Program-made: the position numbers and the translations under genes
Notes under the pieces: model-generated
Database searches by the model: none
Told to the model about the DNA's origin: nothing
Seen by the model: only the letters and a program-made list of their open reading frames with translations
In this document: piece by piece, positions 1 to 58,937 of the stretch
Layout: each line of letters opens with the position of its first letter
Position numbering within the stretch: the stretch's first letter is position 1
Virus record (IMG/VR): IMGVR_UViG_3300028840_001431
Coordinates: 1-62,650 of that record
Reading direction: 5' to 3' (one strand)
DNA length: 62,650 nucleotides
DNA from: a virus
Lineage: Duplodnaviria > Caudoviricetes

Positions 1-144
1 AAGCATATCTCGATCTTGGACGTGAGAAAGGGCAAGTGGGCATCGGATAGGATTGCAGATGAGATGCTTGACGTTCAGTTAGAGTGGAACCCCATTCTTT
101 TCACGGCTGAACAGGGCCATATCAACAAGACCTTGGGACCTTTC
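1..144. repeat. 144-bp exact terminal direct repeat (copy 1); circular-assembly overlap
   Basis: 1-144 (aagcatatct...gggacctttc) is identical to 62507-62650 and lies inside the terminase ORF. Confidence 0.97.
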
Positions 145-429
145 CTGAAGCTCATGATGAAGCAAAGGGGCATTACGATCAACCTTGATCCCCGAGTCCC
201 CGTGACCGATAAGGTGTCCCGAGCCCGCACGGTCCAAGGCCTGAGCAAGCAAGGGATGGTCAGTTTGCCGAAGAGAGGTCCCGATCAGCCAGCATGGTTA
301 TCTGATGTCCGAATGCAGTTGAGGCGTTTTCCCTACGGGAAAAATAAGGACTTTGTTGATGCCTTAGCATGGATGGGGCAAGCGATTGATGAGGTATTCA
401 AATCCAAGTGGGTTGGGGTAGCGACATGA
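1..429 (+). CDS. terL: Terminase large subunit, C-terminal nuclease part
   Basis: DKVSRA...LRRFPYGKNKDFVDALAW is a typical terminase RNase-H-like C-terminus; in frame with 61514..62650. Confidence 0.88.
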   Translation, partial: KHISILDVRKGKWASDRIADEMLDVQLEWNPILFTAEQGHINKTLGPFLKLMMKQRGITINLDPRVPVTDKVSRARTVQGLSKQGMVSLPKRGPDQPAWLSDVRMQLRRFPYGKNKDFVDALAWMGQAIDEVFKSKWVGVAT

Positions 430-626
430 TCAAGACGATATGGGCGGTCATTCGGTGTTACTCGCATTGCCTGTTTGCTCTCCATCGGCCATTCATTCAA
501 GAATACAAGGGGAAGCTCTTCGTTGTGAGCTGTTGGGAGTGTGAGCGTTCGTTCTATGGACCTGATGACGTGGTAAAGAAGCAGATCAGATTGTTCAGGG
601 CTCTTTCCCGAGCCTTTCATAGGTGA
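426..626 (+). CDS. Small hypothetical protein (CxxC)
   Basis: ATG overlaps the terL stop (ATGA coupling). Confidence 0.5.
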   Translation: MIKTIWAVIRCYSHCLFALHRPFIQEYKGKLFVVSCWECERSFYGPDDVVKKQIRLFRALSRAFHR

Positions 627-697
627 TACTCGCGTCCCTGCTAATTGGAACTAATATCGACCGATTGAGTCAAATTAACCTTTAGAGGAGGAGCATC

Positions 698-910
698 ATG
701 GATCAAAAAGACCTTCATCATCGTTTCACGTATCATCCACCGACCGGGAATCAGCCTGAGAAGTATGAGCAGATCAGGACGATAGCCCGTAATTTCTCTG
801 ATAACCTAAACCTTGCTTGCCCGGACAGCCGGGAAAAGAGTCTTGCGATCACCAAGCTTGAAGAGGCGGTTATGTGGGCAAACGCCGCTATTGCCAGAAA
901 TCCGAAGTAA
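698..910 (+). CDS. Acb2/Tad1-like helical-hairpin protein (putative immune-signal sponge)
   Basis: RFTYHPP...CPDSREKSLAITKLEEAVMWANAAIARN resembles the Tad1/Acb2 hairpin family; GAGGAG RBS. Confidence 0.65.
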   Translation: MDQKDLHHRFTYHPPTGNQPEKYEQIRTIARNFSDNLNLACPDSREKSLAITKLEEAVMWANAAIARNPK

Positions 911-1091
911 TATCCACAACTAAAAATTCGTTGACTTCAGATGATAGCAGATGAGAGGATATGAGAGACTAGGACGGGGGAGTAATCGTGGTTTTTTCAC
1001 CTGACCGGGTTTCATAGGGTTCCCCCTCAAGTGTCCTTTCCCATGGTATCCCCCGTCCCCTTACTAATCCCTTAAATGGAGGGACCTCGCA

Positions 1092-1601
1092 ATGGAGGAA
1101 GCTCAATGGAGCACCGAATTGACCCTTGATGAAGGGTACATGATTGGATCTCTCGCCGCTTGTCGTATCGTCCGAAAATTCCACTACAAACGAAAGAAGA
1201 GTCACGGTGGTCATTCCCGGAGAGATAATCGGATCATTTGGGCCGATTCGATCAATGGGTTGATGGGTGAGTATGCCGCGTCAAAGGTCCTTGGCTTGCC
1301 TTGGACCCCCGGCGGGCCGATGATTACCCATGGTGATATTGCCGAGGCTATTGAGGTCCGAACCCCGTGGAAACGGAATGGGAACCTCCTCATCTACAAG
1401 AGCGATACCTTACAGGTCCCGTTCGTCAAGATGAAGGGTGAGTTCCCGGTCTACCATGCGGTGGGTTGGATCTTGGGTGATGAGGCCCGATGTGATGACT
1501 TTTGGTGGAAAGGGGGTGATCCTCCATGTTGGAGCGTACCTGACCGATGCCTGACATCGATGGAACGATTCAAACCTTGGCTTGAAGGACGGTATATATG
1601 A
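1092..1601 (+). CDS. Hypothetical protein, possible PD-(D/E)xK-like fold
   Basis: GGAGG RBS; GxxGEYA...GDI...IEVRT pattern. Confidence 0.5.
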   Translation: MEEAQWSTELTLDEGYMIGSLAACRIVRKFHYKRKKSHGGHSRRDNRIIWADSINGLMGEYAASKVLGLPWTPGGPMITHGDIAEAIEVRTPWKRNGNLLIYKSDTLQVPFVKMKGEFPVYHAVGWILGDEARCDDFWWKGGDPPCWSVPDRCLTSMERFKPWLEGRYI

Positions 1602-1768
1602 GCACGTTGTTGGATCTAGCTTGGCAACATACGATTGGAGCCATCGCCTCTTCATTGGTGGGGTTCCTGACGTTCTTGGTGATTGTTGCCTTTGTTGGCC
1701 TCTTAATCCTGATAACCCGATATCGGTCAAAGCCTGAAGGTCCCATGAAACCCATCGACGAAGAGTGA
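1598..1768 (+). CDS. 56-aa membrane protein whose 3' end reads through TIGR-like units
   Basis: Hand translation MSTLLDLAWQHTIGAIASSLVGFLTFLVIVAFVGLLILITRYRSKPEGPMKPIDEE; ATGA overlap with upstream ORF; its TGA stop is inside the edge motif GTGAACCG at 1765. Confidence 0.6.
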   Translation: MSTLLDLAWQHTIGAIASSLVGFLTFLVIVAFVGLLILITRYRSKPEGPMKPIDEE

Positions 1769-1808
1769 ACCGCAAAGAGTATGAAACCCTTACAAACTAT
1801 CGTGAAAG
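1729..1808 (+). repeat. Satellite TIGR-like units (2, possibly 3 from ~1694)
   Basis: AAAGCCT-N10-TGAAACCCA(1746)-N10-GTGAACCG-N9-TGAAACCCT(1782)-N11-GTGAAAGG; loop motifs 36 nt apart; TGATAACCCG at 1710 is a further 36 nt upstream. Confidence 0.75.
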
Positions 1809-1818
1809 GAGGAAGTCA

Positions 1819-2001
1819 ATGCGAGCATTGCAAGAGCAAGTAAGAATACAATGTTCAGATGGAAATTGGAATTATGATCCGTACATGCACGGCATGGCTA
1901 ATGGTTTGATTTGTGCTTTAGCTACCATCGAGGGGAAAGAGCCGAAATATCTCAACCCGCCGGAGAAGTGGCTATGTGATAACGAGGTTGAATGCGGCTG
2001 A
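1819..2001 (+). CDS. 60-aa hypothetical protein lying between TIGR-like units
   Basis: AAAGGAGG RBS upstream of ATG 1819 (the track's 1765 start is an array motif). Confidence 0.7.
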   Translation: MRALQEQVRIQCSDGNWNYDPYMHGMANGLICALATIEGKEPKYLNPPEKWLCDNEVECG

Positions 2002-2008
2002 TTCCCAC

Positions 2009-2440
2009 GTGAGCCTGAATATTGCTGGAACCCTTAAAGACTGTGTGAAGCCTTGTCGCGTTGGAACCCATAATAATCATGTGAGCCGTGGCCGTATGAA
2101 ACCCTGATTATACCTGTGAGCCGAGAGAATTGTGAAATCCTTATGACCGACTGTGAGCCTAAAAACCGTGAACCCCTACGACCTTCAGCGGAGTTTGGTG
2201 GAGGTGGACCCCATCCCCCCGTGATGAATCGATGATCCTTGGAACCCGATTAAGCTCAAGTGAGCCTAGCACACCCTGAAACCCTGAGTGGCTTGCGAGT
2301 CAACAGTTGATGAAGCCCATTAATACGGTATGAAGTTTGGACTCAATGAATCCCTACCATCATGTATGAAGCCATAGTTATCTTGGACCCCAATCCTAAC
2401 AAGTGAGTCTAATGGAGATCGTGAAACCCTAACAATATTA
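2009..2440 (+). ncRNA. TIGR-like (tandem interspaced guide RNA) array: 12 units of ~36 nt, edge repeat - spacer A - loop repeat - spacer B
   Basis: No ORF of 60 aa or more in 2002-2464. Loop motif TG(A/G)A(A/C)CCC(T/A) at 2026, 2062, 2097, 2133, 2169, 2205, 2240, 2277, 2311, 2347, 2384, 2422 (mean period 36.0) alternates with edge motif (G/A)TGA(A)GCC/GTC at 2009, 2045, 2081, 2116, 2153, 2188, 2224, 2260, 2295, 2330, 2366, 2403; intervening 8-11-nt segments are all different. Confidence 0.9.
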
Positions 2441-2464
2441 CGCCTTTGAGCAAGGAGGACAGAG

Positions 2465-2923
2465 ATGAAGCATCAACTAGACCCCGATATGATGGCCAAA
2501 GAAGAAAAGCGTCCCGAGATGCCAGATAACGCCGGGATGGCTAAGGACCCTTATCGTATGCCTGTTACAAGCGTTAATGAAGCAATTCTCAGGAACATGG
2601 AGGGCATGAGATCCCTCATGGAAGAGATGGTTCAGCTAACCCGTGAGATGGCGGGCCATGAGGTCAGGATCTTCCCCCCTGCCATGGATGAGAAATATAC
2701 CGGGGAGGTCTACAAGCGGGACAACGGGGAAGAGGTCCCGGAGAGTGAGTGGGTGATCTTCCGCGTGACCGATCATCTCCTTCCGAACGTGCTCAGGGCC
2801 TATATGGACCTTTGCAAGTCGGTGGGATGTAGTGAGAGGCACATCAACGGCATTGGTGGGCTTCTTCAGCGGGTGGAGCATTGGCAAGCTACCCATCCCC
2901 ATCGGGTACACATGCCGGATTAG
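2465..2923 (+). CDS. Hypothetical protein (first cargo gene after the array)
   Basis: AAGGAGG RBS; its TAG stop lies in the edge motif TTAGCCA. Confidence 0.75.
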   Translation: MKHQLDPDMMAKEEKRPEMPDNAGMAKDPYRMPVTSVNEAILRNMEGMRSLMEEMVQLTREMAGHEVRIFPPAMDEKYTGEVYKRDNGEEVPESEWVIFRVTDHLLPNVLRAYMDLCKSVGCSERHINGIGGLLQRVEHWQATHPHRVHMPD

Positions 2924-2961
2924 CCATTACGAATTGAAACCCTTGCAATCATAGGTGATCA
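2920..2961 (+). repeat. Solitary TIGR-like unit filling an intergenic gap
   Basis: TTAGCCA-TTACGAAT-TGAAACCCT(2935)-TGCAATCATAG-GTGATCA then ATG 2962. Confidence 0.7.
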
Positions 2962-3876
2962 ATGTACGCTCATCAGGTTATGGAGTGGCTCGACAATCAA
3001 GCGGTGCATCCGGGGCAAATGCCGGATAACTACCGGAGAGACTTGAAATTTCTACGGGAGGCTATTCGCAAGGCCGTCAAGTATCATATGGGATTCATCG
3101 GTGATTTCTATGATATTTTCAAGCATAGAGTCCTTGGTGAGCCGCTCTTTACTGATGACGTGGTTTGCATCCCCCCTTACAATTCGATTTGGGTGGATTG
3201 GAAAACCTCCAAGAGTGCGGGGATCAAGAGGCAAGCGATATTGTGTCATCACTTCAACGATCATAGCCATCCCCATAGGCGACTTGATTTCACCCCGTTC
3301 ACGTATCAAAACCATAATGGATGGGATTGGACTTACATTCCGATCATAGCTCATGTGGATTTCGACAAGAAAGGGGAGTCAGAGAGATCTGTCAGCTATA
3401 GTTCATCTCTTACCCCTGAGGAGTGGGATCAGTACGGGAACCCCGATAAGAATGATAAGAAAGACCGCGGCCAAACAGGGGCCATCAGGCATATGGCGGT
3501 TCATATGACGGCCATGGATATGCTGTTTTCTTTCCTGAATTGTAAAAACGTCAAGACAATTCCCGTTGATCCTGATAAGAAGCTATTGAAGAAGAGGGCC
3601 AAGAGAAACAAGCTCCCCATTCTGAGATATCACGTCCTGAAGGTCACGGGAGTCAAGATCAAGCAGGATGGGACGATTGGACGGGGCAATCGAGATCTTC
3701 CCCTTCATACGGTATGCGGTCACATCAAGGACTATACCGATAAGGGCCTATTCGGTAAGATCAAGGGGCGGTTCTTCTTTGCCGCTCATCTCAGGGGCTC
3801 AGCCGATCACGGTATGGTGATGAAGGATTACGAAACAGTACCGGAGGAAAGACATGAACAGACGATCATTTGTTAA
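2962..3876 (+). CDS. Hypothetical phage protein
   Basis: 304-aa ORF with C-terminal PLHTVCGHIKDY...AHLRGS motif seen in phage hypotheticals. Confidence 0.75.
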   Translation: MYAHQVMEWLDNQAVHPGQMPDNYRRDLKFLREAIRKAVKYHMGFIGDFYDIFKHRVLGEPLFTDDVVCIPPYNSIWVDWKTSKSAGIKRQAILCHHFNDHSHPHRRLDFTPFTYQNHNGWDWTYIPIIAHVDFDKKGESERSVSYSSSLTPEEWDQYGNPDKNDKKDRGQTGAIRHMAVHMTAMDMLFSFLNCKNVKTIPVDPDKKLLKKRAKRNKLPILRYHVLKVTGVKIKQDGTIGRGNRDLPLHTVCGHIKDYTDKGLFGKIKGRFFFAAHLRGSADHGMVMKDYETVPEERHEQTIIC

Positions 3877-4462
3877 GGCAATCATAGCGGTTGGAGCCTC
3901 TACCATAGTGAAACCCGCTCTTTCTCTGCTCCCCAAGGCTAAAGCCGTGAGTTCTCCGGCGAGTTCTCCAATTGGAGATTTGGAGATCCCCAAAAATGCC
4001 TTTGTAACGTCCGAGCAGATCAAGGCCATAAGGAGGTTGCTTGCTCGTGGCGAAGTGGCCTTTAATTGGCCTCGGGTCCATGGGAAGGCCTCGGTGGTCG
4101 ATGATATGTATCGACAAAACAGGCCGATAGGGCATTTCAAACACCTTGAGCTTCCAAAGGCTAAGACGGTGAGTTTCAGGCGATATGAGGAGCTTCCCAC
4201 GGTGCCTGAGCCCTTAGCTGAGGGGATGATCCCGAGTGGTGAGCGATTGGCCTATGCAGAGTTTGTCCCTTGGGATCATTACTATAATGCCGCGAAGTTA
4301 AACGAGGAATGGTTGAAGAGGTTTGAGGTTGCTTCAACCGCTTCTGAGGTCCCTCTTATCCAGCAACAGGACCTCAATAAAATGGCTAAGCGTTTGGGCG
4401 AGAACGTTGCCCGAGTGAAGGAAAGCCTTATCAAGGCATTGATCAAATCAGCAGTCAGGTGA
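3854..4462 (+). CDS. Twin-arginine-signal protein containing a truncated major-capsid-like segment
   Basis: N-terminus MNRRSFVKAIIAVGA; LPKAKTVSFRRYEELPTVPEPLAEGMIPSGERLAY aligns with MCP IPKRHTKSIKFRRYESLPRATAPLAEGIPPKGRKLTY. Confidence 0.75.
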   Translation: MNRRSFVKAIIAVGASTIVKPALSLLPKAKAVSSPASSPIGDLEIPKNAFVTSEQIKAIRRLLARGEVAFNWPRVHGKASVVDDMYRQNRPIGHFKHLELPKAKTVSFRRYEELPTVPEPLAEGMIPSGERLAYAEFVPWDHYYNAAKLNEEWLKRFEVASTASEVPLIQQQDLNKMAKRLGENVARVKESLIKALIKSAVR

Positions 4463-4527
4463 TAGCGGAACCCTAGTGAGTATCTATGTTAAAAAGCGAT
4501 TAACAATGTTAATTTTGAGGTAACACC

Positions 4528-5085
4528 ATGAAGATAACAAGACGCGGATTCCTGAAGCTGTTAGGCGTTGGTGGTCCGGGATTAGCGGCGACCGCTACGG
4601 CTAAGATGAACCCCGTCAAAGGCCTTGAGGCCCTATTTCGGAACCTTCCCCAAGCAAAAGGGATTAGGGATGGGCAAGTCATCCTTGGATTTGATCCTAA
4701 GGTGATGTATGGTGATTGGATGAAGTCCGGGATTATCGTAAAACCGGAGATGTATGGAGTCTATGGGCCGTGGCGACCGTCCCCGAAACCGGGAAAGAAG
4801 CCGGGAGATTTGGGGTATTATGACTTGAGCCAAGTCCCTGATGAAACGATGAGGAAGGTACGGAAGAGCATTGAAACCTTTATCCCGAGGAAATGGCGAC
4901 CCCATGTAGTCATTGACCTTTCGGCTTCGGGTGATATCATTTGGTGGAGGTATCTTCCACCGGGGATGAGTCCGATCAGGAACCAGAAGCCCCCGGTTGA
5001 TACGTTCTTCCCCGAGAAGAGGAAGTCAAAGTTGACCGGAAAGCCCTTGAGAGAGGGTGAGCGTATCTCGTATTGGGATGATTGA
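4528..5085 (+). CDS. Twin-arginine (Tat) signal-containing hypothetical protein
   Basis: MKITRRGFLKLLGVGGPGLAATATA fits S/T-R-R-x-F-L-K; its TGA stop is inside the edge motif TTGAGCCA. Confidence 0.75.
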   Translation: MKITRRGFLKLLGVGGPGLAATATAKMNPVKGLEALFRNLPQAKGIRDGQVILGFDPKVMYGDWMKSGIIVKPEMYGVYGPWRPSPKPGKKPGDLGYYDLSQVPDETMRKVRKSIETFIPRKWRPHVVIDLSASGDIIWWRYLPPGMSPIRNQKPPVDTFFPEKRKSKLTGKPLREGERISYWDD

Positions 5086-5162
5086 GCCATTTGAAAGTAG
5101 GAACCCAAGATAGATTTTGTGAGCCTAATGACTGCTGGAGCCCTAGATAGTGTGTGAAATCA
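5082..5162 (+). repeat. Satellite TIGR-like mini-array (2 units)
   Basis: TTGAGCCA-N9-AGGAACCCA-N11-GTGAGCCT-N9-TGGAGCCCT-N9-GTGAAATCA; edges at 5082, 5119, 5154. Confidence 0.8.
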
Positions 5163-5180
5163 AAACTTTGGAGGTATGAA

Positions 5181-5663
5181 ATGAAGAGAATGAATTTGAG
5201 AGATTGGATTGCTTTCGTTTGTGTCGTCATTATCCTTGCGTTTGTCCTTACGCCGATGTTTGCAAATGCTCAAAACAAGGTCTATCAAGCGGATCTTCAC
5301 TTGATGTGGGAACATTCCGAGCATCCTTCCAACATGGCCGGGGGTGGATATCGGATCTATTGGGGTCCCGATGAGGGTGGACCGTGGCCTCAGTCTAAGG
5401 ATATCGACTTTGCAACTGTGGCCCCCGGTACGCCTTTGCCGAGTGGAGTGACGACCTATGAGGTCCCTCAGATCTTGATCCCGATTGACAATCCTCAGGC
5501 CTTATCAGCGGTCACGCGGTACATAGTCATGACGGCTTGGAATCAGGGAGGAGATGAATCAGATCCATCGAATGAAGTCACGGTTCCCATGAAATTCAAG
5601 CTTGCGGGGGTCAATGCTTTGAAGATCATCTTCAAGGCACTCATTGAAATCACGATTCCATGA
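5181..5663 (+). CDS. Secreted Fn3/Ig-like protein
   Basis: Signal peptide ending ANA; GYRIYWG...YIVMTAWNQGGDESDPSNEV is a fibronectin-III-like pattern. Confidence 0.6.
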   Translation: MKRMNLRDWIAFVCVVIILAFVLTPMFANAQNKVYQADLHLMWEHSEHPSNMAGGGYRIYWGPDEGGPWPQSKDIDFATVAPGTPLPSGVTTYEVPQILIPIDNPQALSAVTRYIVMTAWNQGGDESDPSNEVTVPMKFKLAGVNALKIIFKALIEITIP

Positions 5664-5944
5664 CCCGAAAAGCAAAGCCCCAAAAAGGAAGGAAGGTCGA
5701 TTTTTGGTCCTTTTGTACGGGGGCAGGAATGGGAATCTTCCTTGGACTACTCGCGGGTCAAGCCATCTATCAACCGGACACACCAAGGCCCGAGAGTTTT
5801 CGACCTGTCCAAGTGATGAGGCCTCTCCCTGATGGGAAATTTCAGGAAGGGCGAATGGGTCCGAATGGACGATTCATACCCGTTGGACCTCCAAGGGAGT
5901 TGACAGAGAAAGAAAAGGCCATGGTCCCGGCTGAATTGAGGTAA
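5660..5944 (+). CDS. Single-pass membrane hypothetical protein
   Basis: Hydrophobic segment; ATGA overlap. Confidence 0.55.
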   Translation: MTRKAKPQKGRKVDFWSFCTGAGMGIFLGLLAGQAIYQPDTPRPESFRPVQVMRPLPDGKFQEGRMGPNGRFIPVGPPRELTEKEKAMVPAELR

Positions 5945-5947
5945 GGC

Positions 5948-6595
5948 ATGATCAAGCCCCCCGCAATGGTTAAGGCCTACCCTGAGAGGAAATTCCATCG
6001 ATTCTTCTTCGATGAAGGTCCCCCATGTGACTTCTATGTGAGAGGGGCTATTGCTTGGCCTTGGATAGGTCAATTAGGCTTTGGAGTCCTAGGGGCTCAA
6101 GAGATCAATACGAAGATCGTCTATGTCTTTGAAGAATATGAGTTTCTCCACATTGACCCCGTTTTCGACCCTGACACAACTAAATACGTTGGATTGGCCG
6201 ACTTCCTCAATAGGATGGCCTCAAAGTATCAGGCAACCGAGTATTTCTGGAATGACCGCCCTGACCTCCACGATTATTATCACAAGCTTGTCATCAGATC
6301 CCCCCAAGTGAACGTTCAGCCCGCCATGATCAAAGCCCATTACGACAAGGATGAGGTTGCAGATGGGATTCTCCATGCTCATGTTGACCGGAAAACGGTT
6401 AGGGTATCATTGCAATCTCAGGTGTTACAGCATTTGCAAGGGGGTGATCCCGATCAATTCAGGGGATATCATGCTTTGAGGGTCCTTTTGATGGGGTTCA
6501 CTAATTTTCCATGGAGGGACCCCGGACCACCGACCGAGGACGTGGTTGAGATTTGGGACCCCACTCCTCGTATTTGGTCGAAATGGAGCAGATGA
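5948..6595 (+). CDS. Hypothetical protein (possibly RNase-H-like fold)
   Basis: 215-aa ORF with GAGGT RBS; the fold guess is weak. Confidence 0.6.
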   Translation: MIKPPAMVKAYPERKFHRFFFDEGPPCDFYVRGAIAWPWIGQLGFGVLGAQEINTKIVYVFEEYEFLHIDPVFDPDTTKYVGLADFLNRMASKYQATEYFWNDRPDLHDYYHKLVIRSPQVNVQPAMIKAHYDKDEVADGILHAHVDRKTVRVSLQSQVLQHLQGGDPDQFRGYHALRVLLMGFTNFPWRDPGPPTEDVVEIWDPTPRIWSKWSR

Positions 6596-6611
6596 AAGGA
6601 GGTGATGGCAG

Positions 6612-6665
6612 ATGCCTTGCGGATCAAAGAAGGGTAAGAAGAGAGGGGGCCGGAAAGGCCGTTAA
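6612..6665 (+). CDS. 17-aa basic micropeptide MPCGSKKGKKRGGRKGR
   Basis: AAAGGAGGTG RBS upstream; hand translation. Confidence 0.5.
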   Translation: MPCGSKKGKKRGGRKGR

Positions 6666-6673
6666 GAAAACTA

Positions 6674-6702
6674 TTGACTTTTCAGCGAAATTGTGCTTTA
6701 AC
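6674..6702 (+). promoter_or_regulatory. Possible sigma70 promoter
   Basis: TTGACT-17 nt-TTTAAC with TG upstream of the -10. Confidence 0.35.
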
Positions 6703-6710
6703 CCCCGGCA

Positions 6711-6911
6711 ATGATCAGGGGGATAAAAAGAGTTGAACTCACGATTGTCTGTGAGAGGTGCGGGAGGAAGGCTCAAGTTGAATCATTAGATGATACGGTT
6801 TGCCTGTCCTGCCTAGCGTTTGCCGATAGGAGAAAGAAGGTTGGAAAAGTCATCTCCCGAGTTGTCTCTGACGCGGCAAAAGGAAAGTTTTCTCCAAAGG
6901 TTACGCCGTGA
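6711..6911 (+). CDS. Small zinc-finger protein
   Basis: CERC...CLSC. Confidence 0.5.
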   Translation: MIRGIKRVELTIVCERCGRKAQVESLDDTVCLSCLAFADRRKKVGKVISRVVSDAAKGKFSPKVTP

Positions 6912-7024
6912 CCATGGCATAACTCCCACCGTTTGCATCGAAAAATACCCCGGAACAAACAGGCCTTGCTTACACGCTTTCATTCGGAAGGATGGAGGCG
7001 TTCATCATTTTAGGAGGATGATCC

Positions 7025-11279: not shown

Positions 11280-11876
11280 ATGAACAAACGATTTGCAATT
11301 GTAGCGTTGACGGCATTGATGGTTTTCGTTTTTGCGGGAATGGCCTTGGCTGACCCTTTCACCGGAAGGCCTCACACTTGGAGAGGTGAGCAGATTTACC
11401 GGGGAGAGATGAAGTTCAGGGGTGATAACGCGGATCTCACTTTGGAATCCGGGTCCGAGATTACCCTGACCACGGCTCCCCGATATACGACCACAACCCT
11501 TACTTGGACTGCTGGCACGGGATACACGGTTCCCTCGACCGTAAAAACCGGGGCCGTCTATCAATTCGATATCTCTTCGGCCACAAGTTCAAGTGCCGGG
11601 GGCGATAATGGCATCATGGATGTCGGCACGGCAGGGGTGACAATTCATATTCCCACCCCAACCGCAGTTAATCATGATACGATCTTCGGGCTTCAGAAGA
11701 TCGACTCCGGGACAACGGACGCTATTCTCTACTGTGCGGGCCTTCCGATCTTTTGGGCTTCGTCCGGTACAACCAATGTGAGCAAGGAAATGGATGCCCA
11801 AGGGGATATCGTTTGGTTGCAACTTAATTACAATGGTGCGGTTAGTGTCTTTGCGGTCAACGAGTATATGCATTAA
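11280..11876 (+). CDS. Signal-peptide-bearing beta-rich protein (possible virion decoration)
   Basis: GGAGG RBS; MNKRFAIVALTALMVFVFAGMALA-DPF. Confidence 0.65.
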   Translation: MNKRFAIVALTALMVFVFAGMALADPFTGRPHTWRGEQIYRGEMKFRGDNADLTLESGSEITLTTAPRYTTTTLTWTAGTGYTVPSTVKTGAVYQFDISSATSSSAGGDNGIMDVGTAGVTIHIPTPTAVNHDTIFGLQKIDSGTTDAILYCAGLPIFWASSGTTNVSKEMDAQGDIVWLQLNYNGAVSVFAVNEYMH

Positions 11877-11926
11877 TCCTTAGAGTTCTGAAATCCTAAA
11901 TACATATGTGAATTGGAGGAGTTGAG

Positions 11927-12982
11927 ATGGTCGATGAGAGTCAGGCCCTAGAGGCAACGGAAACCGAATCAGAAGATGTGAGCTTAGACGAAGGCGAATC
12001 CGTCTTTGATGATGCTTTCGATGAGGCCATAGGCGACAAACCCGATGAAGGATCTTCCGAAGAGAAATCCGAGGAGGATGAAGGGGATAAGGACAAATCC
12101 GAGGCCGAGGGTGAAGCTGAATCCGATGAGGCTGAGGCTGAGGATGAGTCTGAGGAGGACAAAGACGAATCTGAAGAAGATGAGGAGAAAGGTCAGGAAG
12201 ATGAAGACGACAAGGACAAGGATGAGGGTGACGAAGATCTGACCCCGGCTCAGAAGCGGGGAAAGATCCTGATCGAGTCCGAAAAAGGTGGGGTAGGCGA
12301 TGAAGAAGGGGATGAGGACCTTGAGGATGAGGGTTATTCCCCCGATGAAGGCCAACCACCCCCGATTGAAGCCATTGATGATCGAGTTGCCGGGGCTTAT
12401 ATCGGGATGCTTGATGTCGGAAAGCTTCCTGAGTCCCTTAAGGTTGGGGATGAAGTGATCAACCTTAAGGCGTATTATGAGGACAATCCTGAAGTTCCTG
12501 TCATTACAACGTTGATGGCCCGTCAGATCATTGGTCGGTTGGTTGATTCCGGTGTCCTGATGACGGGTGACGATGCCGCTGAAATGATGGAGGAAGTTTC
12601 TGATCGTGTCTATCGGTTAAGACTTACTCAAGAATGGCCGGATACCAATATGGAAGAGGTCATTGACAGTAAGGAATTTATCGATTGGGTACAAAACGAA
12701 GCTCCCGAGGAAACTCAGGCTCTTTTCAGATCCGATGACCCTGAGGATCATGTCTTAGGGTTCCGGGAGTATTTTGATAATTCCCCGGCCAAGAAAGGAT
12801 CGAAAGAGAAGGCCTCAAAGGCTGATGCTCAGGCCCGCAAGAGCAAGGCTGAGTTTGATGCCGTACACACTTCATCGGCTAGAAGGACCTCTAAGAAGGG
12901 TGGAGGAACCCCGGCGGTCGAGGAAGATTATGCTTCCGCTTTTTCGGACGCCGCTGATGCCGTGGAGAAGGAAGGGGTATGA
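11927..12982 (+). CDS. Capsid scaffolding protein
   Basis: Very acidic low-complexity N-terminus; directly upstream of com/MCP. Confidence 0.7.
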   Translation: MVDESQALEATETESEDVSLDEGESVFDDAFDEAIGDKPDEGSSEEKSEEDEGDKDKSEAEGEAESDEAEAEDESEEDKDESEEDEEKGQEDEDDKDKDEGDEDLTPAQKRGKILIESEKGGVGDEEGDEDLEDEGYSPDEGQPPPIEAIDDRVAGAYIGMLDVGKLPESLKVGDEVINLKAYYEDNPEVPVITTLMARQIIGRLVDSGVLMTGDDAAEMMEEVSDRVYRLRLTQEWPDTNMEEVIDSKEFIDWVQNEAPEETQALFRSDDPEDHVLGFREYFDNSPAKKGSKEKASKADAQARKSKAEFDAVHTSSARRTSKKGGGTPAVEEDYASAFSDAADAVEKEGV

Positions 12983-24698: not shown

Positions 24699-27600
24699 AT
24701 GGCCTACTTTACAACGAAGTTGTCAGATATTGTGCCGGGAATCGATGACACCAACCCCACTAGGCACTTAGTCCAACCCGCTCAACAACCGAGTGCATCT
24801 CAGCAAATCGAGAGTTCCTTGATGAGTCGAAACGACCGGGAATATCTCGATCAGTTGCGGCGGGCTCATGTGCCTAAGGGTAGGCCCCACCTGATGGGAG
24901 CCGTAAAGAGTACCGCTCTTGAGGCTCTTGGAGGTTTGGGAGGCCTTTTGGAGATCCCCGGCGAAGTCATTTCTCCCCTAAAGCAAGCGGGTGAGAACGT
25001 CAGGAATTTCTATTCTCAGATTGCCGATGAGGACCCCGATGTTCAGGAATACACCAAATCAGTCATCGAAGGGCGGGAACCATGGGTTGGAGAATTCGCG
25101 GGCTCCCTTGGTCCAACGGGTATGGCCGCTCTTCTGCATACCGTTCCGCTTGCTGGTCGAGCATTGGCAACGGCTTATTTCTATAAGCTCAACAAAGAAG
25201 AGGCTGAACAACTTGCACTCGACAAGGGAGCAGATCCGCAAAGAGCCCTATGGACCGGAAGGGTTGCCGGGGCCATCAATTCAGCCTTGGATATATGGGG
25301 ATTAGATCGGATTTTTGCGGCCTCTCAACCCGCTAAGAATATTGGAAGATTCCTTCTCAATCTTGGGATGGCCGGAGTTTCCGAGGGTGCAACTGAGGGC
25401 CTTCAGGAAGTCATCTCCGATATGTCGTCCGAGTTTGCGGCAAAGCCCCCTGAGCAGGACTTTGGTGAGTTTATCTCCGGGATGGAGCAAAGGCTCCCAA
25501 CCTTCTATAATCGTTTCAAGGAAGCCGCCCTTATCGGTGGTCCCATGGGTGCTCTATTTGGTGGAGCCGCCGGGGGAGCCGCCGCTCTTCAGAGGCGGGG
25601 ACGTGCAAAAGAAGCCGAGAGGCAAAGAGTACAGACCGAGCAAGAGGCACAAGAACGGGCTCAGGAAGCCGCCCAAGACCAAAAGCGTACAAACATAGCC
25701 GATGCCGTCCAAATGGCCCTTGTGGCCGAACCGGGGGGTCCTAGAGACTTTATTTTGAAGGGGGCCTTGATTCCGGCTATGACCGAGCAAACGGGTCCCG
25801 CAACCCCGGCCCAACGTCGAGCCTTGCCGGAACCTCAAAGAGCCCTCCCTGAACCTCAGAGGATGCTCCCTCATTCCACTATCCCACCAATTGAAGCTGG
25901 TCCTTTCCCGCTAGTACCGACTGAACCGCGTAGGCCTACCGAGGCCCCCACAACGGTCTTGCCGATAGGTGAAGAGGCCGTTGAGGCGGGTCCCTACCCC
26001 ATAGTTCCTACCGAAGGACCAAGAACAGATATCGGAAGAGCGGGCCTTGCTCGGAGAGTTCAGCAAGTTGCCGGGATAGGAGAACCGACCGGGGAAGTCA
26101 TAGAGATGGCTCAACCCGCCGAGGAGGAAGCCTTTGAACCCGTCGAGCCCACGGTTGAGGTCGGTGAAGCCGCCGAGGTTCCCGAGCTTACCAAAGAAGA
26201 GGTTGATCTTAAAGAGGCCTTCAGAAAAGCCCAAGAGAAAGCCGCCGCCGCTGAGCCCAAGCCGGAGAGGGAGAGAACTCGATTTGATGACATTGCCGAT
26301 GAGCTTGGGATTACATATGACGGCCCCCATCAGGGCCTAGAGCAGTTCACCACCGATAGCGGATATACGTTCTCACTCCCGCCGGGGCAAGTAACCATTA
26401 CATCAGTTCGTAAGGCAATGCCGGAAGATGAAAGGCCCGATTTTGTTCCCGGCCCTGAGCGTGAGGGAGCCGAGCCGCTTGAATTTACCGAGCCGAAACT
26501 TCCCGCCGATGTTCACGGCATTGTCATGGCTGACCCCGTTGACCCTGATAGGCAAGTCTTTTACCGAAGGGAACAGGCCGGATTTCTTCCAGAGTATGAC
26601 ACAGACGATGCCGATGCCGCTGAGCTTCTTGGGAAAAGGATAGCTTTGAAACGTGGGGTTGGGCGACCTCACAAATATGGGAATCTTATCAGGATTCTTG
26701 AGAGGAAAGGCATTCCTTACCGATTGCTTGGAAAGGATGAAACCGAGGATTTCTCTGATAAGAGGATCTCAGGCATTGGGAGCATTGATTACATTCAGGA
26801 TGAATACGCGGTCAAATATCAGGGAATCAATGAAGATGGAACCCGCCGATGGACCTATGAGGGTCAGGTTGAGGAGATAGCCGGGAAAGAGTTTACAACA
26901 AAGGGACTTGATGAGGATGAGGTTGCCGCTGAAATAGGGAAGCTTGAAGATGAGTATATAGCCGAGCAGACCGAAGCAGAGGAAGCCCTCCCGCCTGAAG
27001 AGGAGGTTGAGGTTGAAGAAGAGCCGGAAGGAGAAACCCCGCCGAAAGAGCCTAAGCCCGAGCCAACGGCTGAGGCAAAACCCGACAAAGAAGCAACCTT
27101 AAAGATACTCAGAAGGCGTCAAGAGGATTGGAATAAACAAGCGTTGAAATATGAAGGGGGGAAAGGGATACCCGTAGGGGCCGAGGGGGTTCAATATCGT
27201 TGGGCCTCTGATGCAATGATCATCATGCAAAAGGCGGTTGAGGCAGGAAAGACGATTGATGAAGCCGCGACCGAAGCCAAAGCTACGGCCCGTGGGTGGA
27301 TAGAGAAACATAATGCAAGACGGCCCAAAGATATCAATTGGAAGAGATGGGAGGGGGCCGCTGATACCTATATTGACGATGCCGTTAGGGAAGTCAAGCG
27401 GTTGGAGCCGGAAGCAATCACCGAAGAGCCTGAGGAAGTCACCGAAGAGGCTCCCGAGGTTCGGGAGGTTGCCCCTGAGGATGTCGTCAATGATGCAATG
27501 AAGAGAGTTCAGGAAGCCGCCGAGAATGCCGGGGCCGATTACTCAAACACCCCCATGATCGAAAAGGCCAAGATTGCCGATGTTCTTTGGGCCAATACCA

Positions 27601-55775: not shown

Positions 55776-55957
55776 TGTTCGGAATAGGAGTCCCTGAGTT
55801 ATCGATCATCCTGATTATCGTGATAATCCTTTTTGGGGCCAAAAGGATTCCGCAAATCGGGAAGGATCTCGGCAAGGGTCTGAAAGAGATGAGGAAAGTA
55901 GGAAAGGAACTCAGGCCCGAATGGAAGGACGATGACGATGAAACCAGACCTAGTTGA
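55775..55957 (+). CDS. tatA: Twin-arginine translocase TatA/TatE subunit
   Basis: MFGIGVPELSIILIIVIILFGAKRIPQIGKDLGKGLKEMRK is the canonical TatA TM + FG hinge + amphipathic helix. Confidence 0.9.
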   Translation: MFGIGVPELSIILIIVIILFGAKRIPQIGKDLGKGLKEMRKVGKELRPEWKDDDDETRPS

Positions 55958-56408
55958 TTACGGTGAGGGATACCTCAGCTTTAAGAGGAAACCCACGTTT
56001 GATGAAGCCAAGGATGTGATGACCTTCATTGATTTTGAGGAGGAAAACCTTGCTTGGCATCATGGGGACCTCTTAAATGCCATCGATGATTATTTTGGTG
56101 AGGAAGCTTCTCAATTGGTGGGGCCGAAGCTTGCAAGGAAGGCGACCACCCGTAAGCATGTAGCCGGGAAATTCAAACCACCTCAAAGAATTCATACCCT
56201 TAGCTTCAGCCATCACCAAGAAGTGGCTCCAATTAAGAATATCGAGATGAGGCAGGAACTATTGAACTTGGCCGATGACAATGGGTGGAACGTCACTCAG
56301 TTGAGGGATGAAAAGAATAGGCGGCTTGGGAAGATCCCCAAAGCCAAAACGGTTGAATGCCCCGGCTGTCATTTGGTCTTTGACCCAAAGAAAATAGAGG
56401 GAGAATAA
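55932..56408 (+). CDS. LmbU-like/HTH DNA-binding protein, translationally coupled to the Tas gene
   Basis: WHHGDLL...LSFSHHQEVA...LLNLADDNGWNVTQLR; C-terminal CPGC; TAATG overlap at 56408. Confidence 0.55.
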   Translation: MTMKPDLVDYGEGYLSFKRKPTFDEAKDVMTFIDFEEENLAWHHGDLLNAIDDYFGEEASQLVGPKLARKATTRKHVAGKFKPPQRIHTLSFSHHQEVAPIKNIEMRQELLNLADDNGWNVTQLRDEKNRRLGKIPKAKTVECPGCHLVFDPKKIEGE

Positions 56409-57472
56409 TGCCTAAGCGGAAAGAGCCTTTGAGCGAAGAAGAGATTGCCGCTATTACATTAGAAACCAAACTGAAAACCGAGGTCATGTACGCAATCCAA
56501 AAGGCAAGGATTGCCGCCGATCTTAGGATTCAGGCCTTTGTCAGAGATAAGAGGATGACCGAAGTCAAGGCTAAGGCCCTGCATATGTGGCTAAGCGATA
56601 TGGCTTCGGGCATGGAAAAGCACGTCAACGGGGAGGTGAGGGTCCTCCTCAAGGACGTTCCGATCTATAACAGATGGCTTGTGAATGTTTACGGTGTGTC
56701 AACCGCCTTAAGCGGCTCCCTCATTGCCGGGATAGGCGATATATCGCGGTTTGAGAAGGCATCGAGTCTTTGGAAATATTGTGGGCTCGATGTCATCCAT
56801 TGGTGTGATACTTGCCATATGCCCGCCCCTCCCGATCTCAAGGTTACGACCGGGGACGTTTGCCCCATGTGTCGGAAGGGGGAATTCATTGGTGAGGCTC
56901 CCCGCCGAATGTCAGGTCAGAAGATCCATTGGAGCCCCTTTCTGAGGTCAACGGTCTATAAGATAACAGAAAGCATCGTCAGGGCCGTCAGGGCTCCCGA
57001 GAAGAACTTCTATCGCAAGCTTTACGAAGAGAGGAAGGCAAGACACCAAGAGGAGCACCCTGAGTGCCGAATCTGCTATAAATGCGGGGCTCCATTGGTT
57101 GAGCATGAGAGAGTGAGAGTCAAGAAGGTCAACAAGAAAACCGGGAAAGAGACTGAGGAATGGTACAAAAAGCAAGATGAATGCCCAACCAAGGGTTGCA
57201 AGGGCAATCATGGGGGCTCAACCCATCCCTTCAGGAAAACGAAAGCCGGAGATCCCCTTTACCGTTACAGCAAGGGCCACATCCATCGGATGGCTAAGCG
57301 GTACATGGGGAAGGTCTTTATGCTCCACCTTTGGCTTATTTGGAGGAGTATCGAGGGTTTACCGATCAGCGGGCCATGGATTATCGAGCATGGTGGGCAT
57401 ATTCATTTCACTCAGCCGCCGCATTGGGAGCCTTTTGACATTGGTAAAAGTGGGGAGGTGGTAACACCCTGA
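56408..57472 (+). CDS. TIGR-associated Tas-like protein (Nop/IS110 C-terminal fold, no RuvC/HNH = TasA-like) with two Zn-finger insertions
   Basis: Coiled-coil N-terminus (IQKARIAADLRI); WLVNVYGVSTALSGSLIAGIGDISRFEKASSLWKYCGL; APRRMSGQKIHWSPFLR; FYRKLYEERKAR; GHIHRMAKRYMGKVFMLHLWLIWRSIEGLP; inserts CDTC..CPMC and CYKC..CPTKGC. Confidence 0.8.
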   Translation: MPKRKEPLSEEEIAAITLETKLKTEVMYAIQKARIAADLRIQAFVRDKRMTEVKAKALHMWLSDMASGMEKHVNGEVRVLLKDVPIYNRWLVNVYGVSTALSGSLIAGIGDISRFEKASSLWKYCGLDVIHWCDTCHMPAPPDLKVTTGDVCPMCRKGEFIGEAPRRMSGQKIHWSPFLRSTVYKITESIVRAVRAPEKNFYRKLYEERKARHQEEHPECRICYKCGAPLVEHERVRVKKVNKKTGKETEEWYKKQDECPTKGCKGNHGGSTHPFRKTKAGDPLYRYSKGHIHRMAKRYMGKVFMLHLWLIWRSIEGLPISGPWIIEHGGHIHFTQPPHWEPFDIGKSGEVVTP

Positions 57473-58375: not shown

Positions 58376-58414
58376 TCCCGAGGATGTGAAACCCTTTGAA
58401 ATGATACGAGGAGG
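58372..58414 (+). repeat. Solitary TIGR-like unit
   Basis: TTAGTCC-CGAGGATG(8)-TGAAACCCT(58387)-TTGAAATGAT(10)-ACGAGGAGG (RBS). Confidence 0.5.
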
Positions 58415-58418
58415 TCAG

Positions 58419-58843: not shown

Positions 58844-58937
58844 AAACCCGATATCGGTTGGAAGCAACCAATGTGAGAATTGCGGGTTTGTAGATGAGGA
58901 AGGTGAGTTCTCTCATGAGTCAGAAATTGAAAGCTGA
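58794..58937 (+). CDS. 47-aa zinc-ribbon protein
   Basis: GGGAGG RBS; MDTSNDKERFWECPRCENPISVGSNQCENCGF... Confidence 0.5.
   Translation: MDTSNDKERFWECPRCENPISVGSNQCENCGFVDEEGEFSHESEIES

What the first reader, a model, noticed from the sequence alone, without database searches (positions are those of the whole stretch)
2009..2440. 36-nt-period dual-repeat/dual-spacer array: a TIGR guide-RNA array, not a CRISPR
Seen: a 430-nt non-coding tract with 12 units, each edge motif (GTGAGCC-like) + 8-11 nt unique + loop motif (TGAAACCC-like) + 9-11 nt unique. Loop motifs average exactly 36.0 nt apart (range 34-38). Unit 1 is GTGAGCCT-GAATATTGC-TGGAACCCT-TAAAGACTGT; unit 8 is GTGAGCCT-AGCACACCC-TGAAACCCT-GAGTGGCTT. 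Known: TIGR arrays are processed into ~36-nt tigRNAs with two ~9-nt spacers and box C/D-like motifs that guide Nop-domain Tas proteins to both DNA strands without a PAM. Inference: this phage encodes about 12 guides. The repeats are degenerate and spacer B is usually 10-11 nt as I parse it, so this may be a divergent subtype that CRISPR finders would miss.
Basis: partly seen in the sequence, partly recalled or inferred. Interest (0 to 1): 0.95.

Follow-up and report, generated by a model that had tools for sequence, protein, structure and literature searches.

The report
Phage TIGR guide-RNA array, remote from tas
This phage carries a real TIGR guide-RNA array plus a nuclease-free Tas protein, an ordinary member of a recently described RNA-guided DNA-binding family, unusual mainly because the array lies about 7 kb from its protein gene.

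Summary
Window 2009-2440 holds 12 units of edge repeat, spacer, loop repeat, spacer. Loop starts are 34-38 nt apart, mean 36.0, and lag 36 is the strongest self-similarity (z 6.2). All six frames are closed. ORF 56408-57472 is a Tas protein: it matches TaTasR (PDB 9MTY) at E 1e-26, and the 10 best fold matches are TasR or TasH. It has no RuvC or HNH domain, so it is TasA-type.

The repeats ([T]GTGAGCC and TGAAACCC) belong to the same family as the published TaTasR repeats. The same family flanks Tas homologues in 20 of 29 fetched loci.

New points:
- Two satellite mini-arrays (1694-1808 and 5082-5161) raise the count to about 16-17 guides.
- The record is a complete genome with TerL spanning its ends, so the array lies about 7 kb from tas, not 54 kb. 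It sits between terL and the portal gene. In close relatives the arrays abut tas or, in L005, lie within about 0.7 kb.
- The box C adenine is not conserved (6 of 24 repeats, against 111 of 120 in relatives).

No canonical DNA target was found. Verdict: a new member of a known kind. The likely function is RNA-guided DNA binding without cleavage.

The parts
2009..2440 (+). Main dual-repeat TIGR array. It has 12 units of edge repeat ([T]GTGAGCC, degenerate in units 6, 7 and 9-11), spacer A, loop repeat (TGRAAYCC-like) and spacer B.
   Evidence: anatomy; lag-36 z 6.16; no open frame; PWM scans; same repeat family as published TaTasR tigRNAs.
1694..1808 (+). Upstream satellite mini-array of 2-3 units, with loops at 1710 (TGATAACCC), 1746 and 1782 (TGAAACCC). 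It ends in a truncated edge (GTGAA) that runs into the ribosome-binding site of the next ORF.
   Evidence: A two-unit scan with PWMs trained only on the main array scores 32.9 (start 1728) and 28.7 (start 1694). The maximum over 12 Markov-shuffled genomes was 25.7. Sequence.
1819..2001 (+). Small ORF (60 aa, strong AAGGAGG ribosome-binding site) that separates the satellite from the main array.
   Evidence: phrog_23796 (unknown function), E 5.1e-06.
2919..2960 (+). Weak candidate for a single tigRNA-like unit (loop TGAAACCC at 2935) in the intergenic gap 2924-2961.
   Evidence: Single-unit PWM score 20.8, inside the null range (null maxima 16.5-24.3), so it is not significant alone.
5082..5161 (+). 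Downstream satellite mini-array of 2 units (edges TTGAGCC and GTGAGCC; loops AGGAACCC and TGGAGCCC) in the gap after ORF 4528-5085.
   Evidence: Two-unit PWM score 39.3 against a null maximum of 25.7; single-unit score 27.1 against a null maximum of 24.3. Sequence.
56408..57472 (+). tas gene, 354 aa, TasA-type. It has a coiled coil plus a Nop-like domain, no RuvC or HNH domain, and two CxxC...CxxC insertions (C133/C136...C152/C155 and C223/C226...C259/C264).
   Evidence: 9MTY E 9.9e-27; TasH 21kl E 0.14; Foldseek ranks 1-10 are TasR or TasH, then IS621; model pLDDT 70.8; 8 relatives at 40-48% identity; 2739 representatives at E <= 0.001; phrog_4285, labelled 'transposase', E 1.5e-38.
55932..56408 (+). 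158-aa ORF whose stop codon overlaps the tas start by one base. It may be an HTH_ParB-like partner (a lead only).
   Evidence: coordinates; Atlas structure row 5: aligned part PF17762 HTH_ParB, TM 0.73; no Pfam or PHROG hit; no homologue in the 29 other tas loci fetched (L002, L004-L031).

Best explanation
The tract is a genuine dual-repeat TIGR array. Together with two satellite mini-arrays it belongs to the phage's own TasA-type protein, ORF 56408-57472.

Likely mechanism. The arrays lie on the + strand between terL and the portal gene and are transcribed with that gene block (inferred). The transcript is cut inside each edge repeat, by analogy with TaTasR tigRNAs that begin AGCCA and end UGCG, which here means between GUG and AGCC. 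This would give RNAs of about 35-37 nt that carry spacer A, the loop repeat and spacer B (inferred). A TasA dimer binds the UG...CC motifs of the edge and loop repeats. The complex then pairs spacer A with one DNA strand and spacer B with the other, over a contiguous site of about 18 bp that reads spacer A followed by the reverse complement of spacer B (geometry taken from published oligos). Because the protein has no nuclease domain, the outcome should be sequence-specific DNA binding, meaning a block to transcription or replication of a host or rival-element target, and not cleavage (inferred from published TasA work).

Shown here: the array anatomy, its significance, the Tas homology and fold, the shared repeat family, and the gene context. 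Not shown: expression, processing, binding and the targets.
For: - **Periodicity.** There are 12 loop motifs 34-38 nt apart with mean 36.0, and lag 36 gives z 6.16.
- **Non-coding and unstructured.** Every frame has 5-14 stops. The RNA folds no better than shuffles (z +1.56; 97 of 100 shuffles fold at least as well), as described for dual-repeat arrays (PMC12045711, passages read).
- **Tas protein.** phmmer gives E 9.9e-27 to 9MTY, which the paper identifies as the TasR RNP. Foldseek ranks 1-10 are all TasR or TasH and the next are IS621.
- **Published repeats.** Table S3 of PMC12045711 gives TaTasR tigRNA1 and tigRNA2 with loops UGAAACCCA and UGGAACCCA and with edge halves AGCCA...UGCG and AGCCA...UACG. 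The window has loops TGAAACCC and TGGAACCC and edges GTGAGCC and GCGAGTC.
- **Relatives.** L002 (Tas 46% identical) has an array of about 19 units with edge TG[T/C]GAGCCA, loop TGAAAACCA and 9-nt spacers. It ends 25 nt before tas.
- **Cross-check.** PWMs trained only on the window's main array, used at the null-maximum threshold, hit the tas-bearing strand in 20 of 29 tas-homolog loci (13 of 17 close relatives) and never the opposite strand.
- **Strand.** Satellite units score above null only on the + strand.
- **Function of relatives.** TasA and dead TasR act as RNA-guided repressors (bioRxiv 10.64898/2026.09.09.750476, section read).
- **Processing residue.** The catalytic His of SpTasH (H296; PMC13421893) aligns with the clade-invariant H331.
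Against: - **Distance from tas.** The array is not next to tas. The nearest route is about 6.7-7.0 kb across the terminal repeat. In the 10 close relatives where exact-word chains found an array, it lies within about 170 nt of tas. By eye, L006 and L019 have degenerate arrays about 15 and 50 nt from tas, and L005 has one about 700 nt downstream of tas.
- **Box C.** The adenine is present after only 4 of 12 loops and 2 of 12 edges (T in 7 of 12 each), against 111 of 120 loop-type repeats in 12 relatives' arrays. Published structures describe base-specific contacts to CCA.
- **Degenerate edges.** Five of 12 edge repeats are strongly degenerate, so some units may be dead.
- **Weak cross-model.** A sequence-only covariance model built from 16 L002 units does not find the window's array at a significant level. 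The best in-array hits have E 0.66 and 1.3, and an unrelated site scores better.
- **No signals.** No promoter-like or terminator-like signal stands out (7 promoter-like sites against 6.8 expected, 4 terminator-like against 7.2). The published arrays usually end in a terminator.
- **Processing tyrosine.** The Tyr of SpTasH (Y289) aligns with W324 here (that alignment is weak, E 0.14).
- **No targets.** No canonical target was found in the phage's own genome, in the other fetched loci (the cross-search used 96 guides taken from the relatives' arrays), or, for 2 guides, in viral contigs.
- **Pfam.** Pfam gives no Nop hit, only Transposase_20 at 21.0 bits, just under its cut-off of 21.3.
Confidence: 0.8

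Rival explanations
1. Relic array. This would be a former tas-adjacent TIGR array that was moved away from tas by genome rearrangement and is now decaying. It may still be transcribed as part of the operon but would no longer be loaded into TasA.
For: Five of 12 edges are degenerate. The box C adenine is lost in 18 of 24 repeats. The array lies about 7 kb from tas, whereas relatives' arrays abut tas or lie within about 0.7 kb. There is no terminator, and no target was found.
Against: The 36-nt register is kept across all 12 units, and the UG...CC cores are kept in all 12 loops. The base after CC is biased to T in both repeat types (7 of 12 each). That looks like the edge/loop covariation expected for a symmetric dimer, not random decay. 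Other tas-adjacent arrays in the clade are just as degenerate (L005, L006, L013, L016 and L019). Satellites sit in three separate intergenic gaps, all in the same orientation. tas is intact and its clade-invariant residues are kept.
Confidence: 0.13
2. DNA-level iterons. The 36-bp periodic motifs would be protein-binding sites on the DNA, for example for the small terminase (a pac site) or for the ParB-like protein, and not RNA guides.
For: The array lies 1.3-2 kb downstream of terL, and TerS and TerL are encoded just upstream. A possible HTH_ParB-like gene is coupled to tas (a lead only).
Against: The motifs are the same repeat family that flanks Tas homologues on the tas strand in 20 of 29 unrelated contigs. 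They also match experimentally processed TaTasR tigRNAs. The unique 8-11-nt segments between motifs have no counterpart in iteron arrays.
Confidence: 0.04
3. Chance periodicity, a CRISPR array, or a translated repeat.
For: Tandem Repeats Finder reports nothing here. Over the whole window the loop consensus is not enriched (26 matches against 19.6 expected).
Against: Lag-36 z is 6.16. Seven of the 26 consensus matches fall inside the 432-nt array and two more in the upstream satellite, all on the + strand. Two-unit PWM scores of 36-56 compare with a null maximum of 25.7. Every frame has 5-14 stops. Two different short repeats alternate, unlike the single 28-36-nt repeat of CRISPR. Rfam gives no match.
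Confidence: 0.01

Closest known systems
TaTasR TIGR system (Thermoproteota archaeon LB_CRA_1; PDB 9MTY; Faure et al. 2025, PMC12045711)
   Same: The Nop-type core is homologous (E 9.9e-27; best Foldseek hit). The repeat family is nearly the same: published loops UGAAACCCA and UGGAACCCA and edge UGCG|AGCCA, against window loops TGAAACCC and TGGAACCC and edges GTGAGCC and GCGAGTC. The unit is 36 nt, and both are dual-repeat arrays, not stem-loop arrays.
   Different: The window's protein lacks the N-terminal RuvC domain. Its alignment to 9MTY starts at residue 158 of the chain, and the first 81 residues are modelled as two long helices. It carries two Cys-rich insertions. The box C adenine is mostly U. 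The array is about 7 kb from tas instead of adjacent.
Dual-repeat TasA systems (FpTasA; MbTasA as an RNA-guided repressor; bioRxiv 10.64898/2026.09.09.750476)
   Same: Both have a nuclease-free coiled-coil plus Nop architecture, so the expected outcome is DNA binding or repression. There may be a ParB-like gene in the operon with tasA, as described for 'tasParB'.
   Different: The ParB likeness here is only a structural lead to the HTH_ParB part, with no Pfam hit. The published loci have arrays upstream, downstream or between the two genes. This window has none within 5 kb on the linear record.
Tas-adjacent arrays of the window's own clade (L002, L004, L007, L008, L011-L013, L015-L017 and others)
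   Same: The Tas proteins are 38-47% identical. The edges are TGTGAGCCA or TGCGAGCCA and the loops TGAAACCCA or TGAAAACCA, with the same strand and period. Some of these arrays are as degenerate as the window's (L005, L006, L013, L016 and L019).
   Different: The 10 arrays found by exact-word chains touch tas or lie within about 170 nt of it. Of the three further arrays seen only by eye, L006's and L019's lie within about 50 nt of tas and L005's lies about 700 nt downstream. These arrays keep CCA (111 of 120). The window's array is remote, is split into at least three blocks by ORFs, and reads CCU or CCN.
CRISPR arrays
   Same: Both are tandem arrays of repeats and unique spacers that are processed into guides.
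   Different: TIGR has two alternating 8-9-nt repeats and two spacers of about 9 nt per unit, each spacer pairing with a different DNA strand. It needs no PAM, has no known adaptation genes, and uses a Nop-fold effector rather than a Cas protein (PMC12045711).

Membership tests
TIGR-Tas (dual-repeat type) | Array of two distinct alternating short repeats (8-12 nt) with spacers of about 9 nt, in units of about 36 nt repeated several times | tested here: met
   There are 12 units with a mean period of 36.0 (34-38), and edge and loop repeats alternate. Lag-36 z is 6.16. The definition was read in PMC12045711.
TIGR-Tas (dual-repeat type) | Each repeat starts with box D (UG) and ends with box C (CCA), and the two covary between edge and loop | tested here: inconclusive
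   All 12 loops start with TG, and their eighth base is C in all 12 (seventh base C in 11, T at 2133). Eight of 12 edges have a GTGAG or GCGAG core. The third box C base is A in only 6 of 24 repeats and T in 14 of 24, equally in edges and loops. The relatives have A in 111 of 120.
TIGR-Tas (dual-repeat type) | A Tas protein with a Nop-type domain encoded in the same element | tested here: met
   E 9.9e-27 to TaTasR 9MTY. Foldseek ranks 1-10 are TasR or TasH structures, probability 1.00. Pfam's own Nop model gave no hit.
TIGR-Tas (dual-repeat type) | Array located directly upstream and/or downstream of tas | tested here: not met
   No array was found around tas. The nearest unit is about 6.7 kb away across the 144-nt terminal repeat, or about 54 kb on the linear record. 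This is a typical feature of the family, not a mechanistic requirement.
TIGR-Tas (dual-repeat type) | Repeat sequences homologous to arrays of related Tas proteins | tested here: met
   Window-trained PWMs find tas-strand arrays in 20 of 29 homolog loci. There is a motif-level match to the published TaTasR tigRNAs. A model built from L002 units did not reach significance on the window (E 0.66).
TIGR-Tas (dual-repeat type) | [quoted passage not shown] | tested here: not met
   No terminator-like site follows 2440. The last spacer runs into the ribosome-binding site of ORF 2465. The upstream satellite does end in a truncated edge, GTGAA.
TIGR-Tas (dual-repeat type) | Transcript processed into tigRNAs of about 36 nt that are bound by Tas and guide it to DNA | not testable with these tools
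   This needs small-RNA sequencing, pull-down and binding assays.
TasA subtype (no nuclease) | Absence of an N-terminal RuvC (TasR) or HNH (TasH) domain | tested here: met
   Only 73 residues precede the part that aligns with TasR residue 158, and they are modelled as two long helices. There is no nuclease family in Pfam or PHROGs.
Stem-loop TIGR arrays | Palindromic stems flanking each spacer pair | tested here: not met
   The array folds worse than shuffles (z +1.56), and the edges are conserved repeats, not variable palindromes.
CRISPR array | A single repeat of about 28-36 nt alternating with spacers of similar size | tested here: not met
   Two different 7-9-nt repeats alternate with 8-12-nt spacers.

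The most novel reading that the evidence does not exclude
The tigRNA units are scattered through intergenic gaps of the packaging and morphogenesis block. They would be made only when that block is transcribed, so guide supply is uncoupled in time from TasA, which sits in the replication and regulator block. At least one guide would act on the phage's own DNA. The pair of spacers flanking the loop at 1746 matches 6003-6022, 55 nt inside ORF 5948-6595, at 19 of 20 bases. The match is in the inverted half-site order (reverse complement of B, then A), which is not the published geometry. If real, this would be the first natural TasA target, a case of self-regulation, and a second targeting geometry. 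A milder version is that many tas loci with no detected array have remote arrays like this one. The census found 6,685 arrays for 20,096 loci.
Probability: 0.07. Interest if true: 0.8.

Novelty: new member of a known kind. Interest (0 to 1): 0.42.

Why it matters
TIGR-Tas was described in 2025, and its natural targets and biological roles are still open (PMC12045711, discussion passages read). This is a complete phage genome in which every part can be placed:
- TasA sits with the replication and regulator genes, next to a possible ParB-HTH gene and a sigma-like gene.
- The guides sit in at least three blocks between terL and the portal gene.

It also shows a practical blind spot. Published surveys looked 5 kb or up to 10 kb to each side of tas on linear contigs. 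On this record tas has only 5.2 kb of sequence after it, so an array across the circular junction would probably be missed. Remote arrays could therefore account for some 'array-less' tas loci.

Finally, the CCU or CCN box C in both repeat types gives a natural test of how strictly the box C adenine is needed.

None of this changes the known mechanism.

Tried and rejected
- **Tandem Repeats Finder** and **Rfam** over 1-7000 at E <= 1 found nothing at the array.
- **Covariance model from L002.** A sequence-only model built from 16 L002 units gave no significant hit in the window. The best in-array hits had E 0.66 and 1.3, and the best hit overall (58759) lies in coding sequence. I therefore do not claim model-level detection. 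The gapless model tolerates neither the 1-nt shorter loop nor the variable spacers.
- **A second array next to tas.** I found none in 58340-59140 or elsewhere near tas.
- **Self-targets.** With 16 specified bases, gaps of 0-6 and up to 2 mismatches, the counts for the canonical order and for three other orders (5, 6, 7, 5) were close to those for shuffled spacers (means 2.7-3.2, maxima 6-8). A full-length search allowing up to 1 mismatch gave no canonical hit and a single non-canonical one.
- **Cross-targets.** Testing 96 guides from the relatives' arrays against the window and all loci gave only 2-mismatch hits in every order, controls included.
- **Collection scans.** Exact scans of viral contigs for the canonical targets of units 3 and 8 gave 0 hits each. 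I did not scan the larger collections, because an 18-20-nt composite target is expected to occur there by chance.
- **Relatives of the phage.**
  - blastn of 1000-6600 against 50,697 phage records gave no match.
  - The 304-aa neighbouring protein gave no locus in viral contigs.
  - The Tas protein alone gave none; the alignment gave two loci (L002 and L003) whose array and tas-start region is identical.
  - tblastn of eight window proteins (the array and tas neighbours) against the fetched loci gave no hits.
- **Supplement.** The supplement of PMC13421893 could not be read because the reading timed out. I took the target geometry from Table S3 of PMC12045711 instead.
- **Earlier notes of this scan.** There were none for this genome.
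- **Published catalogue.** I did not check whether this tas gene is listed in the published catalogue (Table S1 of PMC12045711 or TIGRSafari).

Full report
**1. The observation**

Units 1 and 8 read as quoted. Twelve loop-type motifs (TGAAACCC, TGGAACCC and one-base variants) start at 2026, 2062, 2097, 2133, 2169, 2205, 2240, 2277, 2311, 2347, 2384 and 2422 on the + strand. They are 34-38 nt apart, with a mean of 36.0.

Between the loops lie edge motifs. Five are GTGAGCC. The others are GTGAAGCC, GCGGAGT, TGATGAATC, GCGAGTC, ATGAAGTT, ATGAAGCC and GTGAGTC. Each edge and loop is separated by unique segments of 9-12 nt.

Self-identity at lag 36 is the highest of 115 lags (z 6.16 against 1000 shuffles), and its multiples are also raised. 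The region 2002-2464 is the longest ORF-free gap in my greedy ORF map of the genome and has 5-14 stops in every frame. Tandem Repeats Finder does not report it, and Rfam has no match. As RNA it folds no better than shuffles (z +1.56; 97 of 100 shuffles fold at least as well). So it is a dual-repeat array, not a stem-loop array.

**2. The protein**

ORF 56408-57472 (354 aa) matches chain A of PDB 9MTY at E 9.9e-27. The paper identifies that entry as the TasR-tigRNA-DNA complex. It also matches TasH weakly (E 0.14). An AlphaFold model built on nine sequences (pLDDT 70.8) has TasR and TasH structures as its ten best Foldseek matches, followed by IS621 recombinases.

Pfam sees only Transposase_20, just below its cut-off. 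PHROGs files the protein under a family labelled 'transposase' (phrog_4285, E 1.5e-38).

The match to TasR begins at TasR residue 158 and at residue 74 of this protein. The preceding residues are modelled as two long helices, and no nuclease family is found. That makes it TasA-type: a coiled coil plus a Nop-like core. There are two Cys-rich insertions. The first is shared with 1 of the 8 aligned relatives. The second is present in 7 of the 8.

The family is large, with 2739 representatives at E <= 0.001.

The catalytic His of SpTasH pre-tigRNA processing (H296; PMC13421893, passages read) aligns with the clade-invariant H331. The Tyr (Y289) aligns with W324, as it also does in TaTasR. That alignment is weak, so I leave open whether processing is autonomous or done by the host.

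**3. Do the array and the protein belong together?**

There are three lines of evidence.

- **Published tigRNAs.** Table S3 of Faure et al. lists the synthetic TaTasR tigRNAs. They begin AGCCA, have loops UGAAACCCA or UGGAACCCA, and end UGCG or UACG. These are the window's motifs, apart from the last base of each repeat.
- **A related virus.** L002 encodes a Tas protein 46% identical to the window's. It has a textbook array of about 19 units with edge TG[T/C]GAGCCA, loop TGAAAACCA and 9-nt spacers, ending 25 nt before its tas.
- **A cross-check with window-trained PWMs.** I trained position weight matrices (PWMs) only on the window's 12 loops and 9 edges. I set the threshold at the best score seen in 12 Markov-shuffled copies of the genome (25.7). 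A two-unit scan then finds arrays in 20 of 29 loci that encode Tas homologues, and in 13 of the 17 close ones. All hits are on the tas strand and none on the other strand.

The converse test was not significant. A sequence-only covariance model built from 16 L002 units gave E 0.66 and 1.3 inside the window's array. So the likeness is at the level of motifs and architecture, not whole-unit profiles.

Several relatives have arrays as degenerate as the window's (L005, L006, L013, L016 and L019). Degeneracy is therefore normal for this clade. The authors of TIGRFinder also say that TIGR arrays lack the conservation that annotation tools need (abstract).

**4. More units than reported**

The same two-unit scan finds two further blocks on the + strand:
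- 5082-5161 (score 39.3), in the gap after ORF 4528-5085.
- 1728-1808 (score 32.9), which extends to 1694 (score 28.7).

The second block is separated from the main array by a 60-aa ORF with a strong ribosome-binding site. A single unit at 2919-2960 is within the null range.

The phage thus carries about 16-17 units in at least three blocks, interleaved with small genes.

**5. Where the array sits**

The record is a complete virus genome with a 144-nt terminal repeat. The large terminase gene runs from 61349 off the end and continues in frame at 1-429. The order on the + strand is:

primase-helicase, resolvase, HNH, orf158, tas, a sigma-70 region-4 protein, about a dozen small ORFs, TerS, TerL, small ORFs with the arrays, portal/adaptor, major head, tail genes.

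The distance from tas to the first unit is about 6.7 kb, and to the main array about 7.0 kb. The 54 kb seen on the linear map is an artefact of where the record was opened.

In the ten close relatives where exact-word chains found an array, it touches tas or lies within about 170 nt. Three more close relatives (L005, L006 and L019) have degenerate arrays seen only by eye. L006's and L019's lie within about 50 nt of tas, and L005's lies about 700 nt downstream. L018 has 7.6 kb of upstream flank without an array.

Published surveys took 5 kb or up to 10 kb on each side of tas on linear contigs. Here only 5.2 kb follow tas on the record.

**6. What is different about the repeats**

With the 9-nt repeat boundaries of TaTIGR and L002, the window's spacers come to about 8-9 nt (A) and about 9 nt (B). 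I derive this from the lengths.

The real difference is the third base of box C. It is A after 111 of 120 loop-type repeats in 12 relatives' arrays. In the window it is A after only 4 of 12 loops and 2 of 12 edges, and T after 7 of 12 of each.

The published structures describe base-specific contacts to CCA and stacking on the box C adenine. The same paper notes that diverged motifs covary between edge and loop. The equal T bias in both repeat types fits that pattern.

No terminator follows the array, and no promoter-like site stands out.

**7. Targets**

The published oligos fix the target geometry. One strand reads spacer A followed directly by the reverse complement of spacer B. This agrees with the 8-nt 3' overhangs and with box C sitting at the unwinding junction.

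In that geometry I found nothing:
- No site in the phage's own genome.
- No site in the other fetched loci, in a cross-search that used 96 guides from the relatives' arrays.
- For units 3 and 8, no exact match in viral contigs.

One oddity remains. The spacer pair around the loop at 1746 matches 6003-6022 at 19 of 20 bases, in the inverted order (reverse complement of B, then A). No set of 60 shuffles exceeded 16 in that order, although one control order reached 18. Because the geometry is not the published one and many arrangements were tried, I treat this as unexplained.

**8. Mechanism and verdict**

Most likely (0.8) this is a working TIGR array for the phage's TasA.

- It would be transcribed with the terL-portal block (inferred).
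- It would be cut within the edge repeats into RNAs of about 36 nt (by analogy with the published ends).
- The RNAs would be bound by a TasA dimer through the UG...CC motifs.
- The complex would bind 18-20-bp DNA sites on both strands without cutting. This is the activity shown for TasA and dead TasR as reversible, guide-dependent repressors.

The main rival (0.13) is a displaced, decaying array. DNA iterons (0.04) and chance (0.01) are unlikely.

The finding is a correct call of a known kind of system. It is not a new subtype by spacer length. Three features are worth recording: the remote and dispersed arrays, the CCU box C, and a possible ParB-HTH partner gene (a lead; published tasParB passages read).

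I saw the abstract, methods passages and named sections of PMC12045711, plus its Table S3 (first 17 places per search term). Its supplementary PDF with the figures could not be read. For bioRxiv 10.64898/2026.09.09.750476 I read sections 5, 10 and 12 and passages found by search terms. For 10.64898/2026.08.11.744272 I read section 5. For PMC13421893 and 10.64898/2026.07.30.739390 I read only passages found by search terms.

Noticed in passing
window 6003-6022 (+), inside ORF 5948-6595: This site matches, at 19 of 20 bases, the reverse complement of spacer B joined to spacer A of the satellite unit around the loop at 1746. That is the inverted half-site order, not the published TIGR geometry. 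It exceeds all 60 spacer shuffles for that order (maximum 16), but one control order reached 18. The site overlaps a small inverted repeat (5994-6016).
   Followed up: partly
window 24699-40247 (+): A single ORF of 5182 aa, about a quarter of the genome. It has an LPD1 domain (large polyvalent protein-associated domain, E 6.4e-13) and SNF2/Helicase_C domains, so it is a phage 'polyvalent' giant protein.
   Followed up: partly
window 61349-62650 and 1-429 (+): The large terminase gene runs across the ends of the record in frame through the 144-nt terminal repeat. The linear map therefore splits it and makes tas and the array look far apart. TerS is at 60904-61605 and overlaps the TerL start.
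   Followed up: yes
window 55932-56408 (+): A 158-aa ORF whose stop codon overlaps the tas start by one base. It has no Pfam or PHROG hit. The ESM Atlas structure neighbours include a ParB-HTH/MT-A70 cluster whose aligned part is PF17762 HTH_ParB, and DUF1016_N clusters. It may be a counterpart of the published tasParB. It is not conserved in the other tas loci fetched.
   Followed up: partly
window 57540-57977 (+): The gene just after tas encodes a 145-aa protein with a sigma-70 region 4 domain (E 5.1e-09). tas is thus flanked by two putative DNA-binding regulators.
   Followed up: no
L005 1590-1790; L018 1-7648: Not all relatives have the array touching tas. In L005 a degenerate array lies about 700 nt after tas, beyond an intervening ORF. 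L018 has 7.6 kb upstream of tas with no array, and its downstream side is off the contig.
   Followed up: partly
window 11800-12220 (+): A coding acidic low-complexity repeat (GAG/GAA-rich, TRF periods 6, 21 and 27) gives the only lag-36 self-identity in the genome higher than the array's. It is a reminder that lag statistics alone do not identify arrays.
   Followed up: no
window 58383-58394 (+): A lone loop-type motif (GTGAAACCC) sits in the short gap before the small ORF at 58386/58421, about 0.9 kb after tas. No partner edge or second unit is present, so it is probably chance.
   Followed up: partly
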